Origin: a virus
DNA length: 64,000 nt
Virus record (IMG/VR): IMGVR_UViG_3300001685_000001
Direction: 5' to 3' (one strand)
Shown: positions 4,931 through 43,608 of the stretch, one piece after another
Layout of the letters: each line of letters starts with the position of its first letter
How positions within the stretch are numbered: position 1 is the stretch's first letter
Notes under the pieces: model-generated
Seen by the model: only the letters and a program-made list of their open reading frames with translations
The model's database searches: none
What the model was told of the DNA's origin: nothing
Position numbers and translations under genes: made by a program

Positions 4931-5200
4931 TTAATATTCTCCTAAGTACGTATACTGAACATTAGGTGTTACAATAATAAAACTTTTTATTCCACCTTTG
5001 TTATAGTCAAATCCTTGTTCTGTATCTAAAAAGATTGCATCACTGCCATTGATTTTAACGATACAAGGCATCTTATTAATGAAACTAAATTGTTTAAAAG
5101 TGTATCTCTCATCAGTCCAAATAGAAGGGGTTAATGGGATAACCTCATGGTTAGCCTTTGATGTCTCTATTGTTTCCGAGCCTTTAAATCTACCTGACAT
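4931..5200 (-). CDS. Hypothetical virion-associated protein
   Basis: ORF in tail operon with RBS GGAG. Confidence 0.65.
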   Translation of the reverse strand: MSGRFKGSETIETSKANHEVIPLTPSIWTDERYTFKQFSFINKMPCIVKINGSDAIFLDTEQGFDYNKGGIKSFIIVTPNVQYTYLGEY

Positions 5201-37182: not shown

Positions 37183-37258
37183 TGGTGACTCAGGAAAGAC
37201 TTGAACTTCCGACACCCTGAGCTTCAATCAGGTGCTCTACCAACTGAGCTACTAAGTC
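37183..37258 (-). tRNA. tRNA-Phe(GAA), unusual G37 C38
   Basis: 76-nt cloverleaf, CCTGA-TTGAAGC-TCAGG, encoded CCA. Confidence 0.92.
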
Positions 37259-37262
37259 ATTT

Positions 37263-37345
37263 TGGTCAGGAATGTTAATTTCGAGTTAACGACCCCCAGC
37301 TTCTGATTTGTTATGCTGGTGCTCTGCCATCTGAGCTAATTCCTG
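37263..37345 (-). tRNA. tRNA-Pro-bodied tRNA-like RNA with a 14-nt anticodon loop
   Basis: Acceptor CAGGAAT/ATTCCTG, A73 and CCA are identical to the tRNA-Pro; stem CCAGC/GCTGG encloses ATAACAAATCAGAA. Confidence 0.8.
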
Positions 37346-37349
37346 TTGT

Positions 37350-37434
37350 TGGCACGAGTTGAAGGAGTTTAACCTCTTGAAAACGGGTTTGGAATCCGTC
37401 AGCATGTACACACGCTTTTAATTCTCTAACTCGC
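37350..37434 (-). tRNA. Degenerate tRNA-Trp(CCA)-like gene
   Basis: ACGGA-TTCCAAA-CCCGT, G73, CCA; ~9-nt insertion before the D arm; T loop TTAAACT. Confidence 0.6.
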
Positions 37435-37439
37435 ATAAT

Positions 37440-37513
37440 TGATACCCCATAGGAGTTTCGAACTCCTGATTTCGCATAGAAAGTGCGATGTCTTACCACT
37501 TGACCAATGGGGC
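37440..37513 (-). tRNA. tRNA-Glu(TTC), unusual T37 A38; 3' end reads ATCA (no encoded CCA)
   Basis: TCGCA-CTTTCTA-TGCGA; T arm AGGAG-TTCGAAA-CTCCT. Confidence 0.88.
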
Positions 37514-37516
37514 ATA

Positions 37517-37593
37517 TGGTCAGGAATGTTGAACTCGAATCAACGACCCCTAGCATCCAAAGCTAGTGCTCTACCAAACTGAGCTAATTCCTG
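37517..37593 (-). tRNA. tRNA-Pro(TGG), unusual A37
   Basis: C1-G72, A73, CTAGC-TTTGGAT-GCTAG, CCA. Confidence 0.92.
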
Positions 37594-37601
37594 TAATAAA
37601 T

Positions 37602-38129
37602 TTATGAAGAATATCTCCATTTAAATCCACCTGCTGTCTTTCGGGTGTCGCCTCTCCAGTCAATACCTCTTACAGCATATAAGATAGTGCTAGGAGATTT
37701 TATATTATTCTTTTTTGATGCTTCAGCCATAGATGGATAGGAAGACATATAGTTGCCATCTAAATCCAATTTATCTACGCTTCTTTGGTTCGATTTTTTA
37801 CCAAGTAAGCCATTCTCTTTTTGATGTTTTAAGTTTTCTGCCTGTGTAATAGCCTCTAAATTACTTATCTTGTTATTTAGTTTATTTCCATCAATATGAT
37901 TTATTTGCATTCCAATACACTTGCTTCCAAAATAAATCACACCTAAAACTTGATGCACTTGTAAGAGTTTCTTTTTAACTTTCACTCGTAAGTATCCAGT
38001 TGAACTACAAATAGTACCATTTGTTCCTTTTGGAGTAGTGATAATACCTTCAATAATGTCATAATTGATATTTTCAAGGTTACTACTTATAAAATTGTAC
38101 ATATCAATAGACATTCCAGCATTACTCAT
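37602..38129 (-). CDS. Free-standing HNH homing endonuclease (HNH_3 + NUMOD1-like)
   Basis: VHQVLG...INHIDGNKLNNKISNLE; C-terminal DLDGN...YPSMAEASK. Confidence 0.85.
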   Translation of the reverse strand: MSNAGMSIDMYNFISSNLENINYDIIEGIITTPKGTNGTICSSTGYLRVKVKKKLLQVHQVLGVIYFGSKCIGMQINHIDGNKLNNKISNLEAITQAENLKHQKENGLLGKKSNQRSVDKLDLDGNYMSSYPSMAEASKKNNIKSPSTILYAVRGIDWRGDTRKTAGGFKWRYSS

Positions 38130-38182
38130 AATTCCATCTCCTGTTATGTGTCAATAAATAGTTTTTAATAGAATATAAAGTG

Positions 38183-38502
38183 TTGTTAGCTAACCAGCCA
38201 AGAGGCATCCAATAGAGTCAATAAACAACCACTCATAAGCCTTTAATCTTGGATTTAATCGAAGTTTTATTCTTAAAAACTAAACGTTGAGTTCATAAGA
38301 ACTTTGAACCTTAACCTTTGAATCTTAAACTTTGAAATTTGAGCTTTTATCCCATATACGCTCTCTGAGTGTAATATAAAGTACATTCGCTTATCCTTAT
38401 TTGGATTCAAATTTTCATCTGTTAGATGTAAAGTTAATTTGGAGAGCTTTACCCTGCTCTCCGATAGGGTGTTTAGTCCATTAGATTTCGATTAACTAAC
38501 AA
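38183..38502 (-). ncRNA. Candidate ~320-nt structured ncRNA (closing helix, pseudoknot, heptamer-repeat domain)
   Basis: 13-bp end-to-end helix, nested 8-bp and 6-bp helices, H-type pseudoknot, no ORF. Confidence 0.75.
38262..38348 (-). repeat. Tandem 7-nt repeats (consensus YAARGTT), 7 + 4 units
   Basis: AAAAGCT CAAATTT CAAAGTT TAAGATT CAAAGGT TAAGGTT CAAAGTT [10 nt] CAACGTT TAGTTTT TAAGAAT AAAACTT. Confidence 0.85.
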
Positions 38503-38519
38503 TGTTATTTAACTAATTA

Positions 38520-39143
38520 TTAATCTTCAATTGTAATTCTTGTAATCGTGTTGCTCTCTGAAAGCGTGAAATCCACTTCCATGTTGAAGTCCTCGATACT
38601 CTTAACCAACTCATTAATCTGTTTCTCCAAGTTAATTGGGTCAATGAAAGTAGCCTCGTTGTCTGCTTTAAAAGCCTTCACAATGTCTTCATGTGACTGA
38701 GCATTAACTTTACCTTCTTTACCGAACAGCGTTTCCAAGTGAGAGTCTAAACGAGCTTTCATCTCATTGTTAATACGGTCAACATGATTTACCACCTGAG
38801 TATAAGTTGAGCGCATTTTACTTAGTAATTGCTCTTCATAAGAAATAGAAGTCTTTCTCTCAATTGCTTCAGCTACCGTCATTTTAACTCCTGCTACCTC
38901 AACAACAGTTGTTGCATTGGAAAGTACAATTGCAGATTTAATTGCGTTTCTGCGTTTTAACAAATCTTTTACTGATTGATAATCTGATTTGGCACGTTTT
39001 TCAACATCTTCTACTGAGCTATATCCAGTAGGCAATTTCTTACCAACTGAGTTACTTCCTAGAACAGCCTCATTGATTGAACGATTAATGCGTGAGTCTA
39101 ATAGCTTTAATTCTGCTAAGCCTCTTGTAATAGTCATTTCCAT
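38520..39143 (-). CDS. Coiled-coil protein resembling the DIP1984 (septicolysin-like) family
   Basis: MTITRGLAELK...IVLSNATT...MTVAEAIERK...VDFTLSESN; matches the recalled LAEAL/N..T/D..L...N pattern. Confidence 0.6.
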   Translation of the reverse strand: MEMTITRGLAELKLLDSRINRSINEAVLGSNSVGKKLPTGYSSVEDVEKRAKSDYQSVKDLLKRRNAIKSAIVLSNATTVVEVAGVKMTVAEAIERKTSISYEEQLLSKMRSTYTQVVNHVDRINNEMKARLDSHLETLFGKEGKVNAQSHEDIVKAFKADNEATFIDPINLEKQINELVKSIEDFNMEVDFTLSESNTITRITIED

Positions 39144-41060: not shown

Positions 41061-43481
41061 ATGGCAAAAGAGTATAGCATGAAAGTAAAGGTAACAAAGG
41101 TAATGTTCTATGACAATGATAGTATGTACGGTATATTTGGTTGCACCCCAGTTGAATATACACCAGACATTGAAAAGAACAAGTATGGTAATTTCAGTCT
41201 AAAAGGTAACTGTCGTAGACTGAGTGAGGGAGAAGAGTACACTATTGAGTTTGAGGGTTCGTTCCCAGATGCTAAATTTGGCAACTACTACAATCTAATT
41301 AAGGTGGAACAGGAGAAGCTAGATACATTAGAAGCTCAGCACAAGTTTCTAAAGGCAATTGTAACACCATATCAGTTTGATTCACTGGTAAATGCATATC
41401 CAAATGATATGATTATTGATTTAATTACAAACGATGAAGTGGATGTAAACATGACAAAGGGAATTAAATCTTATTCATTGGCACAAATTAAAAACAATAT
41501 AATTAAAAATAAAGAAATAGAAGAACTGATTGTTGAATTAGAATCTATTAATATCACAGCTAAAGCAATCAAAAAGATAGTGGCTCATTATGGAACAGCA
41601 GAGAAGGCTCTACACGCTGTGCGAACGAATATCTACTCCCTGTGCGATGTGTCGGGATTTGGATTCAAGAAGGTAGATGGTTTTGCTTTAGAACGTGGAG
41701 AAGACCCAAAGGGATACAAGCGTACTTTCTATGCTTTGAAATATGTATTGGAGAATGCTGGTCAACAAGGTCACACTTGGATATTTGAAGAAGAGGCTTT
41801 CCAAAATGTAAATGGACTCCTAGACTTATATAGTCCAGTATTGCGTGAGATAATAACCAAGGTGTATCAAGATGAAGAGTTCTATGTTATTAAAGATAAG
41901 GTGTCACTGCGTAAGTATTTTAAGCAAGAGGCTGGAATACTAATCCACTTAATGCGCATACGTGATAGCTATGAAGCTCCTTATGAGTTAGATATTGACA
42001 ATGAAATAAAGAACCAAGAGAGTTTGAATAATATTACTTATTCAGATGAACAGAAAATAGCTATTAAAGAGGCAATAGAGAATGGAGTATATATTTTGAA
42101 TGGTAAGGGTGGGGTTGGTAAAACAACTATTATACAAGCAATATTGGGTATCCTATCACACCAATCACATGCTGCTTGTGCACTATCAGGCAAAGCTTCA
42201 AACATATTAACCAACAAAGGTCTAAATGGCATGACAATGCATCGCCTATTGGGAACAAGTAAAGTGACTAGAGGCTTTGCACATACAGAGTTCTTCCCAC
42301 TACCTGAGAAAATAATTGTTCTAGATGAAGCATCAATGGTTAACGTGGGACTTGCTTATAGTTTAATTCAGGCAATTGCTAATGGCTCTAAGCTTATTAT
42401 TGTTGGAGATAGTGGTCAATTAAGTGGAATAGGACAAGGAGATATGTTAAGAGACCTTCTGGCTACTAATTTCTTCGCTAAGAGAGAGCTAGTACATGTT
42501 CATAGACAAGCTAAAGATAGCGGAATACTTGATATTGCTAACCGCATTCGTGAGGGTGAACAAGTTACTACTTTCAATGGTTCAGGTAAAAGCGCACATG
42601 GCATTAAAAAAGACCAGTTGGTTATTACTTATAAGGATAGAACAGACCTTGCAAATGATATCCGTCATATTATTGATAGTTATAAAAATAAAATGAACTC
42701 AGCAGAAGACATCATGAATTTTCAAATACTTGTAGCAAACAAGGATAAAGGAGACATATCTACAACTGCTATTAACAAGTATGCTCAATCTGTTTTCAAT
42801 AAATCTATTAAGCAGGGATTAAAGTATGGAGCATTAGAGTTTAAAGAAACAGACAAAGTAATGGCTAAAGGAAACGTTTATGAAATTACAGTATTTAGAG
42901 ACCTAGAAGCATACAAGGAGAAAAATGTTTATTGGGGTCTCATGAAGAAGTTTAAGGACTTAAGAGAACAAAAAAACACCTGTGAACTATATGAGCAAGA
43001 AATGGCTAGAGAAGATATAGAGGAGCTACTTAGTGTTGAAAAAGAGTTGGAGAGATTCAGAGGTAGCATTTACACTGAAGACCTATTCAATGGAACGCTG
43101 GGAATAGTTAAGCAAGTCGTAACGGAAGAGAAAGAGCTTCTAATTGAATTTGAAAATATAAAAGGGTTGGTCGCCATTTCTCAAAATGGTTTAGACATAA
43201 TCGACTTGGCATATTGCATGACGATTCACAAGAGTCAAGGGTCAACGATTAAAACGGTTATCGTAGCTATTGACTTTGTTGCATTCAAGCTGTTGACACG
43301 TCAATTAATATACACAGGTATTACTCGTGCAAGTGATAAGTGCATCCTACTAGCTGAGAACAATGCTCTGCATCAAGCAATAGATACAGATAATAGTGGT
43401 AACAGACAAACATTCTTAGCTGGTTTAATCAGAGGATATCAGCAGAAATTGGAGAATGAAGCGAGACAGCTAGAAGCTTAA
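41061..43481 (+). CDS. recD: RecD2-like SF1B helicase
   Basis: GKGGVGKT, DEASMV, GDSGQL, AYCMTIHKSQGS, YTGITRA. Confidence 0.92.
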   Translation: MAKEYSMKVKVTKVMFYDNDSMYGIFGCTPVEYTPDIEKNKYGNFSLKGNCRRLSEGEEYTIEFEGSFPDAKFGNYYNLIKVEQEKLDTLEAQHKFLKAIVTPYQFDSLVNAYPNDMIIDLITNDEVDVNMTKGIKSYSLAQIKNNIIKNKEIEELIVELESINITAKAIKKIVAHYGTAEKALHAVRTNIYSLCDVSGFGFKKVDGFALERGEDPKGYKRTFYALKYVLENAGQQGHTWIFEEEAFQNVNGLLDLYSPVLREIITKVYQDEEFYVIKDKVSLRKYFKQEAGILIHLMRIRDSYEAPYELDIDNEIKNQESLNNITYSDEQKIAIKEAIENGVYILNGKGGVGKTTIIQAILGILSHQSHAACALSGKASNILTNKGLNGMTMHRLLGTSKVTRGFAHTEFFPLPEKIIVLDEASMVNVGLAYSLIQAIANGSKLIIVGDSGQLSGIGQGDMLRDLLATNFFAKRELVHVHRQAKDSGILDIANRIREGEQVTTFNGSGKSAHGIKKDQLVITYKDRTDLANDIRHIIDSYKNKMNSAEDIMNFQILVANKDKGDISTTAINKYAQSVFNKSIKQGLKYGALEFKETDKVMAKGNVYEITVFRDLEAYKEKNVYWGLMKKFKDLREQKNTCELYEQEMAREDIEELLSVEKELERFRGSIYTEDLFNGTLGIVKQVVTEEKELLIEFENIKGLVAISQNGLDIIDLAYCMTIHKSQGSTIKTVIVAIDFVAFKLLTRQLIYTGITRASDKCILLAENNALHQAIDTDNSGNRQTFLAGLIRGYQQKLENEARQLEA

Positions 43482-43484
43482 ATT

Positions 43485-43608
43485 CTCAAAGGTTACTTTT
43501 CACATAGGCTATCACTTTATATATATAATTAATATAGATTAATATAATAATATATATATATATATATAAATAATAAAGTGAATATAGGGGTCAGAAGTAA
43601 CCTTTGAG
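43485..43608. repeat. Origin-like unit A: 35-bp inverted arms around a 54-bp AT tract
   Basis: Arms share CTCAAAGGTTACTT and TCACTTTA; spacer contains (TA)9. Confidence 0.8.

What the first reader, a model, noticed from the sequence alone, without database searches (positions are those of the whole stretch)
38183..38502. Long-range helices and an H-type pseudoknot define a discrete ~320-nt ncRNA
Minus strand. TTGTTAGTTAATC (38502-38490) pairs with GGTTAGCTAACAA (38195-38183): 13 bp, two G-U. Nested inside are TCTAATGG/CTATTGGA (8 bp), TAAACA/TGTTTA, a GCC-TCTT-GGC side hairpin, and CACTCA/TGAGTG closing the repeat domain. The hairpin GGAGAGC-AGGGTAAA-GCTCTCC (38462-38441) has loop AGGGT complementary to ACCCT 3 nt upstream, which is classic H-type pseudoknot geometry. 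Further hairpins: CATCT/AGATG, ATCC/GGAT, TGTA/TACA. The G-U pairs favour RNA structure on this strand.
Basis: partly seen in the sequence, partly recalled or inferred. Interest (0 to 1): 0.8.

Follow-up and report, generated by a model that had tools for sequence, protein, structure and literature searches.

The report
New pseudoknotted RNA beside tRNA clusters
The 320-base stretch is a real, intricately folded non-coding RNA of a family that appears undescribed; it always follows one small protein gene in phages (phage T5 included) and bacteria, often inside tRNA gene clusters, so it probably marks an unknown RNA-protein machine linked to tRNA upkeep.

Summary
Window 38183-38502 (minus strand) is a discrete structured RNA. 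Its 14-bp closing helix, two long-range helices and the H-type pseudoknot all recur, with different sequences, in relatives.

- Strand: 23 distinct closing helices hold 289 Watson-Crick and 64 G-U pairs against 1 A-C.
A covarying three-part 3' stem (Pa/Pb/Pc) replaces them, and the two long-range helices cross it as pseudoknots.
- The RNA lies directly 3' of a 207-aa gene (phrog_1491, weakly DIP1984-like) wherever I looked. This covers T5-, rV5- and Bastille-like phages, Lactococcus, Vibrio, Pseudomonas and jumbo phages. It also covers 77 of 80 bacterial loci; the three misses are shortened loci.
- Cyanobacterial copies sit in long tRNA arrays, and eight carry a whole tRNA inside the RNA.
- Neighbours are often ADP-ribose-processing or RNA-repair genes (PARG, Macro, NADAR, cREC).
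- Rfam 15 has no match, and I found no paper describing it.
- Function is inferred only. My best guess is the RNA part of an RNA-protein complex acting on tRNA or RNA repair, with 7-nt repeats as a multivalent platform.

This scan noted it only on this window.

The parts
38183..38502 (-). Whole ncRNA, 320 nt. RNA position p = 38503 - window coordinate.
   Evidence: The boundaries match the conserved block in L001 and L002. nhmmer and CM hits lie at the same spot in all related loci.
38489..38502 (-). P1 5' strand (UUGUUAGUUAAUCG)
   Evidence: Pairs with 38183-38196. 23 distinct P1 helices hold 289 WC and 64 G-U pairs against 4 mismatches. 95.5% paired, and 10 of 14 pairs change on both sides.
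38183..38196 (-). P1 3' strand (UGGUUAGCUAACAA), preceded by the conserved GGC
38486..38491 (-). Conserved junction UCGAAA (mostly ACGAAA in the other lineages)
   Evidence: Seen after the P1 5' strand in nearly all lineages.
38479..38486 (-). PK1 5' strand (AUCUAAUG)
   Evidence: Pairs with 38207-38214. 74% paired, 6 of 8 pairs change on both sides. Cognate versus non-cognate test.
38207..38214 (-). PK1 3' strand (UAUUGGAU), in the internal loop between Pc and Pb
38470..38475 (-). PK2 5' strand (UAAACA)
   Evidence: Pairs with the Pc loop at 38222-38227. 83% paired, 5 of 5 pairs change on both sides. In T5 the pair is AUCUUAC/GUAAGAU.
38222..38227 (-). PK2 3' strand (UGUUUA), inside the 12-nt Pc loop
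38441..38470 (-). H-type pseudoknot. S1 is ACCCU (38466-38470) with AGGGU (38451-38455). S2 is GGAGAGC (38456-38462) with GCUCUCC (38441-38447).
   Evidence: An H-type pair of stems starts 12-24 nt after P1 in 18 of 19 lineages (AM4 at +35), with different sequences; L001 and AM4 give an alternative pairing. The window scores 32 against 16 +/- 9 for shuffles, 0 of 100 as high.
38370..38428 (-). Variable hairpin region (CAUCU/AGAUG, AUCC/GGAU, UGUA/UACA)
   Evidence: Present in the MFE fold. Number and sequence differ between lineages. This region, together with the adjacent pseudoknot slot, is replaced by a tRNA or tRNA-like module in other lineages.
38299..38347 (-). Core of the 7-nt repeat array (about 7 units of YAARGUU; looser units run on towards 38265)
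   Evidence: TRF finds period 14 and direct repeats are listed. Family-wide autocorrelation is 0.41 at lag 7 and 0.40 at lag 14 against about 0.22 background.
38251..38262 (-). Conserved segment UCGAUUAAAUCC; its last two bases (CC, 38251-38252) are the first two pairs of Pa
   Evidence: Most conserved primary sequence of the family.
38248..38252 (-). Pa 5' strand (CCAAG), pairs with 38198-38202 (CUUGG)
   Evidence: 98-99% paired; pair types include AU, UA, GC and CG.
38198..38206 (-). Pb 3' strand (GCCU, 38203-38206) followed by Pa 3' strand (CUUGG, 38198-38202)
38239..38242 (-). Pb 5' strand (AGGC)
   Evidence: 79-93% paired; the first pair is found as A-U, C-G and U-A.
38215..38234 (-). Pc hairpin: GAGU (38231-38234) with ACUC (38215-38218), 12-nt loop
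   Evidence: 73-93% paired with G-C/A-U/C-G exchanges.
38520..39143 (-). Partner gene: 207-aa helical protein (phrog_1491, weakly DIP1984-like). Its stop codon lies 17 nt before P1.
   Evidence: phrog_1491 at E 1e-68. AF2 pLDDT 87. Best PDB match is 3kdq, E 5e-3. Always directly upstream of the RNA.
37602..38129 (-). HNH_3 homing-endonuclease gene inserted between the RNA and the tRNA genes (context, not part of the RNA)
   Evidence: Pfam HNH_3 at 2.7e-10. Absent at this spot in L001 and L002. Vibrio phage Cody has the same arrangement.
37183..37593 (-). tRNA-Pro, tRNA-Glu and tRNA-Phe cluster downstream (context)

Best explanation
This is a genuine structured non-coding RNA and a member of a large family that appears undescribed (245-450 nt).

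Shown:
- The RNA strand is the window's minus strand, the strand of the 207-aa gene directly 5' of it; no terminator lies between the two.
- Its ends pair in a 12-23-bp helix (P1).
- The strand just 3' of P1 forms two pseudoknot helices (PK1, PK2) with the loop and 3' flank of a three-part stem (Pa/Pb/Pc) near the 3' end.
- Between them lie an H-type pseudoknot, variable hairpins and an array of 7-nt repeats (AAAG-NNN) that is probably single-stranded.

Inferred:
- It is co-transcribed with the gene and released as a stable RNA, in part by tRNA-processing enzymes.
- It works together with the protein encoded upstream as a two-part module, most likely an RNA-protein complex in which the repeats act as a multivalent platform.
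- The module acts on tRNA or RNA repair and homeostasis. This follows from where it sits: in phage tRNA clusters, in cyanobacterial tRNA arrays, and next to ADP-ribose-processing and RNA-repair genes.

Confidence that it is a real conserved RNA is about 0.95. Confidence in the protein partnership is about 0.55, and in the tRNA/RNA-repair role about 0.45.
For: Structure:
- P1 occurs in 23 distinct versions: 289 WC and 64 G-U pairs against 1 A-C and 3 other mismatches.
- 3' stem on the model-fitted alignment: 91% paired against 63% shuffled, all 13 pairs change on both sides, slid controls 32-51%.
- Full pseudoknotted structure on an unfitted MAFFT alignment of 22 copies: 81.4% against 66.9%, 0 of 500 shuffles, slid controls 32-49%.
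- PK1 and PK2 cognate against non-cognate duplexes: 0 of 10000 permutations.
- An H-type pair of stems starts 12-24 nt after P1 in 18 of 19 lineages; about half score clearly above shuffles.
- 7-nt periodicity across the family.

Transcription:
- Intrinsic-terminator-like hairpins with U tracts 10-25 nt after P1 in Bcp1, Milchi, phiPsa347, Cody, AM4 and L034/L035 (read by eye).
- A tRNA starts 3 nt after P1 in Av-05 and L004.
- Contigs from two RNA libraries holding T5 end at L030 4990 and 4972, where P1 ends at 4983. The next contigs start at 5040 and 5111.

Linkage:
- 16 of 16 assessable viral loci found through an RNA motif alone have the gene directly upstream on the same strand.
- 77 of 80 bacterial loci found through the protein have the RNA directly downstream.

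Context:
- tRNAs flank many phage copies.
- Cyanobacterial copies lie in arrays of up to 18 tRNAs.
- Eight copies carry a whole tRNA inside the element, and Desertfox carries a YrlA-like tRNA mimic there.
- Neighbours of the bacterial copies: PARG 11, NADAR 2 and Macro 1 among the 53 downstream genes sampled; Macro 3 among the 50 upstream genes.
- cREC follows the T5 copy. RNA ligase or NAD-salvage genes follow in Milchi and 7-11.
Against: - Nothing here shows that the protein binds the RNA. The protein family is acidic (median pI 5.6), unlike classic RNA binders.
- Expression rests on contigs, not reads, so ends and abundance are not proven.
- T5.085 was 'Not Fit' (dispensable) in a CRISPRi-ART screen (PMC11879866 supplement), so any role is accessory or conditional.
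- 47 of 77 bacterial copies have no tRNA within 1.5 kb, so the tRNA link is not universal.
- The S1/S2 pseudoknot is only 54% paired on the MAFFT alignment, which is rich in indels there. Its support comes from my own scan, where roughly half of the lineages do not exceed shuffles.
- The plus strand folds as well by energy.
Confidence: 0.55

Rival explanations
1. The RNA is a cis-acting 3'-UTR operator of the upstream gene. It would control that mRNA's stability or translation, perhaps through cooperative binding of the gene product to the 7-nt repeats. This would resemble the T4 gene 32 operator, described from my memory as a pseudoknot followed by UUAAA-type repeats with about 7 nt bound per monomer.
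For: It always lies on the same transcript side, 15-250 nt after the stop codon, with no terminator between. It has a pseudoknot and a repeat array.
Against: The RNA is a closed domain whose ends pair. In eight lineages a whole tRNA lies inside it, and in others a tRNA follows it by 3 nt. That points to excision as a separate stable RNA. A 300-nt core with two pseudoknots is far more than known 3' stabilisers need. The operator analogy rests on memory and was not tested.
Confidence: 0.15
2. The RNA acts alone, in trans, as a decoy or sponge. The repeats would soak up a host or defence factor such as an RNase, an anticodon nuclease, an RNA ADP-ribosyltransferase or a single-strand binder. The neighbouring protein would be only an accessory.
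For: 8-12 regularly spaced AAAG units that are probably unpaired. The module is dispensable in the laboratory host. It sits among conflict-type genes such as PARG, Macro, NADAR, cREC and HNH. A tRNA mimic or tRNA occupies one slot.
Against: The strict pairing with one protein gene across phyla is not expected for a stand-alone sponge. The hosts range from E. coli to Bacillus and cyanobacteria, so any target would have to be universal.
Confidence: 0.15
3. It is a catalytic RNA, for example one that helps to process tRNA-array transcripts or carries out an RNA-repair step.
For: Size, a compact pseudoknotted core, a few invariant single-stranded nucleotides (ACGAAA, UCGAUNAAAUCC, GGCUG) and the tRNA context.
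Against: It matches no known ribozyme model in Rfam. A/U-rich 7-nt repeats are not typical of ribozyme cores. Nothing here tests catalysis.
Confidence: 0.05
4. It is a DNA-level element: a replication origin with iterons, a homing site or a cruciform. It would not be an RNA.
For: Tandem repeats, A/T richness, inverted repeats that fold on both strands and HNH genes nearby.
Against: 64 G-U pairs against 1 A-C in P1 means the opposite strand could not form the helices. Helices keep pairing while their sequences change completely. The orientation relative to the gene is fixed. Terminators or tRNAs follow on the same strand.
Confidence: 0.02

Closest known systems
Bacterial Y RNAs (YrlA) with Ro60/Rsr
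   Same: The ends pair in a long stem that closes a modular RNA. Y RNAs are encoded next to their protein partner and to RNA-repair genes such as rtcB (from memory and PMC4201824). They carry a tRNA-like module. The Desertfox copy has a segment that scores 44.5 bits, E 1e-6, on the YrlA model, and cyanobacterial copies carry real tRNAs in that slot.
   Different: The window RNA gives no YrlA hit. It is 2-3 times longer and has two long-range pseudoknots and a 7-nt repeat array. The partner is a 207-aa helical protein, not a Ro60 ring. The P1 sequence is not conserved.
tmRNA with SmpB
   Same: About 300-400 nt, ends paired, several pseudoknots, a central single-stranded segment, the protein-partner gene often directly upstream, and found in phage tRNA regions (L035 has a tmRNA).
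   Different: There is no T-arm or acceptor mimic, no CCA end and no reading frame; the 7-nt period excludes a frame. ARAGORN and Rfam find no tmRNA here.
GOLLD and ROOL large ornate RNAs
   Same: Large, highly structured RNAs of unknown function, found in phages and prophages and often next to tRNA genes (from memory and bioRxiv 10.1101/2024.12.08.627333).
   Different: No Rfam match to either. This RNA is smaller and is strictly tied to one protein gene. To my knowledge GOLLD and ROOL have no obligate protein partner.
Stable RNAs of phage tRNA regions (T4 species 1 and 2, T5 rnaX)
   Same: Non-tRNA stable RNAs encoded within phage tRNA clusters and probably cut out by tRNA-processing enzymes. 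T5 rnaX is annotated 1.6 kb away.
   Different: This T5 interval (NC_005859 43140-43496) carries no RNA annotation. No sequence or structural relation to those RNAs was shown.
T4 gene 32 translational operator
   Same: An H-type pseudoknot followed by an A/U-rich array of short repeats. About 7 nt are bound per gp32 monomer (from memory; PMC10690425 notes the pseudoknot).
   Different: That operator lies in the 5' leader, is much smaller and is not closed by a terminal helix. The protein here is not an OB-fold single-strand binder.

Membership tests
Any Rfam 15 family | Score at or above the family's gathering threshold | tested here: not met
   Only tRNAs pass in the window. In E-value mode nothing better than E 0.24 falls inside the element. 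The same holds for 22 related loci, apart from one sub-threshold YrlA segment in Desertfox.
Y RNA-like (YrlA, RF02553) | tRNA-like module (T-arm, closed acceptor, D-arm) plus a Ro-binding stem | tested here: not met
   No hit in the window. Desertfox has a partial hit of 44.5 bits against a threshold of 69. A Ro60 gene was not looked for.
tmRNA | tRNA-like domain formed by the two ends (T-arm, acceptor stem, CCA) | tested here: not met
   ARAGORN and Rfam are negative. P1 is a plain 14-bp helix followed by CAC.
tmRNA | Internal tag-peptide reading frame | tested here: not met
   The central region has a 7-nt period; read by eye, it contains many UAA triplets. ARAGORN reports no tag.
GOLLD / ROOL | Match to the curated covariance models | tested here: not met
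Group I intron carrying a homing-endonuclease ORF | Interrupts a host gene and has the P1-P9 core | tested here: not met
   The upstream ORF ends with its family's normal C-terminus. There is no Rfam intron hit. L001 and L002 have the RNA without the HNH gene.
Type III toxin-antitoxin RNA (ToxI-like) | Tandem repeats of about 34-36 nt upstream of an endoRNase toxin gene | tested here: not met
   The repeats are 7 nt and lie downstream of the gene. The protein is a helical bundle with no nuclease match.
The new family proposed here | P1, PK1, PK2, an H-type pseudoknot or tRNA slot, a 7-nt repeat array, UCGAUNAAAUCC, Pa/Pb/Pc, GGCUG, and a position directly 3' of a phrog_1491 gene | tested here: met
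   All of these are present in the window and supported across the family.
DIP1984-like proteins (for the partner gene) | Sequence or fold match to DIP1984 (PDB 3kdq, as I recall the identity) | tested here: inconclusive
   NCBIfam gives none. Foldseek matches 3kdq at E 5e-3, probability 1.0, TM 0.44-0.57, rmsd 11 A. A 'Septicolysin' cluster in AFDB matches at E 1e-2.

The most novel reading that the evidence does not exclude
The RNA and its protein form a new kind of ribonucleoprotein that is a built-in part of mobile tRNA gene arrays in phages and bacteria. A pseudoknotted scaffold would present a tRNA, a tRNA mimic or a pseudoknot next to a multivalent 7-nt repeat platform. It would act in tRNA repair or quality control tied to NAD/ADP-ribose chemistry, or in defeating tRNA-targeting defences. 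In some lineages it would work as a two-piece RNA once the embedded tRNA is cut out.
Probability: 0.35. Interest if true: 0.92.

Novelty: categorically new. Interest (0 to 1): 0.86.

Why it matters
If confirmed, this adds a large, widespread class of structured RNA with an obligate protein partner. The partner family has 3353 clusters at 50% identity and occurs in 740 sequenced phages. The RNA is present in the model phage T5, in an interval without RNA annotation, so experiments can start at once. It links three fields that have been studied separately: phage tRNA clusters, stress-induced bacterial tRNA arrays, and NAD/ADP-ribose-linked RNA repair. It also offers a candidate explanation for why these regions travel together. 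Finally, it corrects a propagated annotation: phrog_1491 is labelled 'tail fiber protein' without support.

Tried and rejected
- blastn of the intergenic region against phages found only a 21% repeat match in Clostridium phage D-1873, so homologues had to be reached through synteny and profile HMMs.
- An exact-pattern scan with the window's pseudoknot sequence found nothing.
- RNAalifold on a MAFFT alignment of the 3' region recovered only Pa. A hand-seeded covariance model was needed.
- A full-length covariance model was not tried, because the tool description forecasts calibration beyond its limit at this length. P1 and the pseudoknots were scored with my own scripts and with the count of structure pairs instead.
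- Protein function stayed open. Pfam, NCBIfam, PDB sequence search and the protein atlas gave nothing useful.
- I considered that each 7-nt unit is complementary to a 7-nt anticodon loop (UUCAAAG against CUUUGAA). Only alternate units fit, and the tRNA-Gln embedded in L214 does not match, so I dropped the idea. This was read by eye only.
- I noticed a loose resemblance between the T5 3' end and the 3' end of E. coli RNase P RNA as I remember it. Rfam gives no RNase P hit, so I dropped this too.
- The literature searches found no description of this RNA.
- Complex prediction was not used, because it takes no RNA chain.

Full report
**What is in the window.**
Window 38183-38502 lies in a 390-nt gap on the minus strand. 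Upstream is a 207-aa ORF (38520-39143). Downstream are an HNH_3 endonuclease ORF (37602-38129) and then tRNA-Pro, tRNA-Glu and tRNA-Phe. The surrounding genes are phage-like: an HU-like protein, a sigma-like factor and an exonuclease. The source contig is about 166 kb and carries SPbeta-type genes YonK and YonJ. The stretch folds to -78.2 kcal/mol, z -3.6. The plus strand folds as well (z -4.4), so energy cannot name the strand. Rfam 15 finds only the tRNAs.

**Homologues.**
blastn found almost nothing. The upstream protein gave 35 viral loci. In the two closest, L001 and L002, the same element follows the gene.

Profile HMMs then found the element at the same spot and on the same strand in every lineage examined:
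- phage T5 itself (L030; NC_005859 about 43140-43496, without RNA annotation);
- Bacillus Bcp1 and Brevibacillus Jenst;
- Pseudomonas Milchi and phiPsa347, and Vibrio Cody;
- rV5-like Av-05, KNP2 and SSE121, and Salmonella 7-11;
- Erwinia jumbo phage Desertfox and Lactococcus AM4.

The protein occurs in 740 phage records and in 3353 clusters at 50% identity.

**Structure.**
- P1 exists in 23 distinct versions of 12-23 bp. They have unrelated sequences but always pair: 289 Watson-Crick and 64 G-U pairs against 1 A-C and 3 other mismatches. On the opposite strand the G-U pairs would be A-C mismatches. So this is an RNA read from the gene's strand, not a DNA cruciform.
- Near the 3' end, a three-part stem (Pa, Pb, Pc) covaries strongly. 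It is 91% paired against 63% for shuffles, all 13 pairs change on both sides, and slid controls give 32-51%. That alignment was fitted to the model.
They join the strand just 3' of P1 to the internal loop after Pc (PK1) and to the Pc loop (PK2). They therefore cross Pa and Pb as pseudoknots.
- Cognate duplexes average -14.0 kcal/mol and non-cognate ones -10.0 kcal/mol, with 0 of 10000 permutations as low.
- On an unfitted MAFFT alignment of 22 full-length copies, the whole pseudoknotted structure is 81.4% paired against 66.9% for shuffles (0 of 500), with slid controls at 32-49%. By helix: P1 95.5%, PK1 74%, PK2 83%, Pa 99%, Pb 93%, Pc 73%.
- An H-type pair of stems starts 12-24 nt after P1 in 18 of 19 lineages (Lactococcus AM4 at +35), with unrelated sequences. 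About half of them score clearly above shuffles, and L001 and AM4 give an alternative pairing. MAFFT misaligns that indel-rich part, where pairing is only 54%.
- A 7-nt periodicity (AAAG-NNN, 8-12 units) is shared across the family.
- Conserved unpaired motifs are ACGAAA, UCGAUNAAAUCC and GGCUG.

**Transcription.**
Read by eye, several relatives have a terminator-like hairpin with a U tract 10-25 nt after P1. In Av-05 and L004 a tRNA starts 3 nt after P1, so RNase P could make the 3' end. Contigs from two RNA libraries that hold T5 end at L030 4990 and 4972, where P1 ends at 4983. New contigs start at 5040 and 5111, at or beyond the 3' edge of the next annotated promoter. Contigs cannot prove ends or abundance.

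**Linkage to the protein.**
A scan with an RNA motif alone gave 17 true hits. All 16 assessable ones have the gene directly upstream on the same strand. A protein-first scan of bacterial genomes gave 80 loci, and 77 have the RNA directly downstream. The three misses are shortened loci with 130-590 nt of downstream sequence. The taxa include Bacillaceae, Brevibacillus, Paenibacillus, Lysinibacillus, Clostridia, many filamentous cyanobacteria and a Parabacteroides MAG.

**Context.**
- Cyanobacterial copies lie inside long tRNA arrays, with up to 18 tRNAs in 3.6 kb. These are the L-arrays that PMC8421152 reports as induced by translational stress. That paper notes embedded hypothetical genes, an HNH gene and rtcB, but no such RNA.
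- Eight copies carry a whole tRNA (Gln, Thr, Asp, Gly or Lys) inside the element, in the slot where phage copies have the pseudoknot.
- Desertfox carries a YrlA-like tRNA mimic in that slot.
- Among the 53 downstream neighbours of the bacterial copies, PARG occurs 11 times, NADAR twice, Macro once, TrmA-like three times and TruA-like once. Macro occurs three times and HNH four times among the 50 upstream neighbours.
- In T5 the next gene, T5.084, is a cREC domain protein.
- Milchi has an RNA ligase nearby, and 7-11 has NAD-salvage genes.
- Two comparative-genomics papers (PMC9503650 and PMC7824862) place cREC, Macro and NADAR in phage RNA-repair and ADP-ribose-processing networks.
- 47 of 77 bacterial copies have no tRNA within 1.5 kb.

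**The protein.**
AlphaFold2 gives a confident model (pLDDT 87) of long helices with a small sheet, where the conserved motifs lie. The best solved match is 3kdq, an uncharacterised C. diphtheriae protein, and the match is weak. The family is acidic, with median pI 5.6. T5.085 is dispensable in the laboratory.

**Verdict.**
I found no Rfam family and no paper that describes it. Function is inferred. The most likely reading is an RNA-protein module tied to tRNA or RNA repair. The rivals are a 3'-UTR operator, a decoy RNA and a ribozyme. A DNA-level element is effectively excluded.

Noticed in passing
window 37602-38129 (-); L041 2490-3167: An HNH endonuclease gene sits directly 3' of the RNA in the window and, independently, in Vibrio phage Cody. 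HNH genes also precede 4 of the 50 bacterial copies sampled. This would fit free-standing homing endonucleases that target or travel with this conserved RNA and tRNA region.
   Followed up: partly
L045 2244-2307 (Erwinia phage Desertfox): Inside the element's variable region lies a tRNA-like module (T-arm, closed acceptor hairpin, D-arm) that scores 44.5 bits, E 1e-6, on the Rfam YrlA (Y RNA-like) model, below its threshold of 69.
   Followed up: partly
L214 2182-2252; also L196, L211, L212, L216, L225, L235, L238: A complete tRNA gene (Gln, Thr, Asp, Gly or Lys) is embedded inside the RNA, between PK2 and the 7-nt repeats. Excising it would leave a two-piece RNA held together by P1, PK1 and PK2.
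   Followed up: partly
L030 5061-5378 (T5.084): The T5 gene just after the RNA, annotated as hypothetical, is a cREC (cyclic-phosphate processing receiver) domain protein, Pfam PF20274, E 3e-15.
   Followed up: yes
phrog_1491; T5.085; Bcp1_067 and others: This protein family is widely labelled 'tail fiber protein'. Nothing supports that label. The gene lies among the tRNA and nucleotide-metabolism (rnh, thy, frd) genes of T5, and the family also occurs in bacterial chromosomes between housekeeping genes.
   Followed up: partly
L194 2139-2410 and 2509-2772 (Parabacteroides MAG): Two tandem hits of the RNA profile follow one copy of the gene, and an AAA_33 (polynucleotide-kinase-like) gene comes next.
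   Followed up: no
L035 446-791: A Lactococcus 949-like phage contig carries a tmRNA gene in the same tRNA region, about 3 kb upstream of the module.
   Followed up: no
L003 2768-2840; L241 3466-3539: ARAGORN calls suppressor-type tRNAs near the module, with anticodon UUA in a viral contig and CUA in a Symploca MAG.
   Followed up: no
window 38172-38181 and 38373-38382: An exact 10-nt direct repeat (ACUUUAUAUU on the RNA strand) occurs once in a hairpin loop inside the RNA and again 2 nt after its 3' end. It may be chance.
   Followed up: no
L030 7638-7703; L011 7713-7778: Weak second matches (E about 0.8) of the 3'-stem model lie about 2.7 kb downstream in T5-like genomes. They are probably chance.
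   Followed up: no
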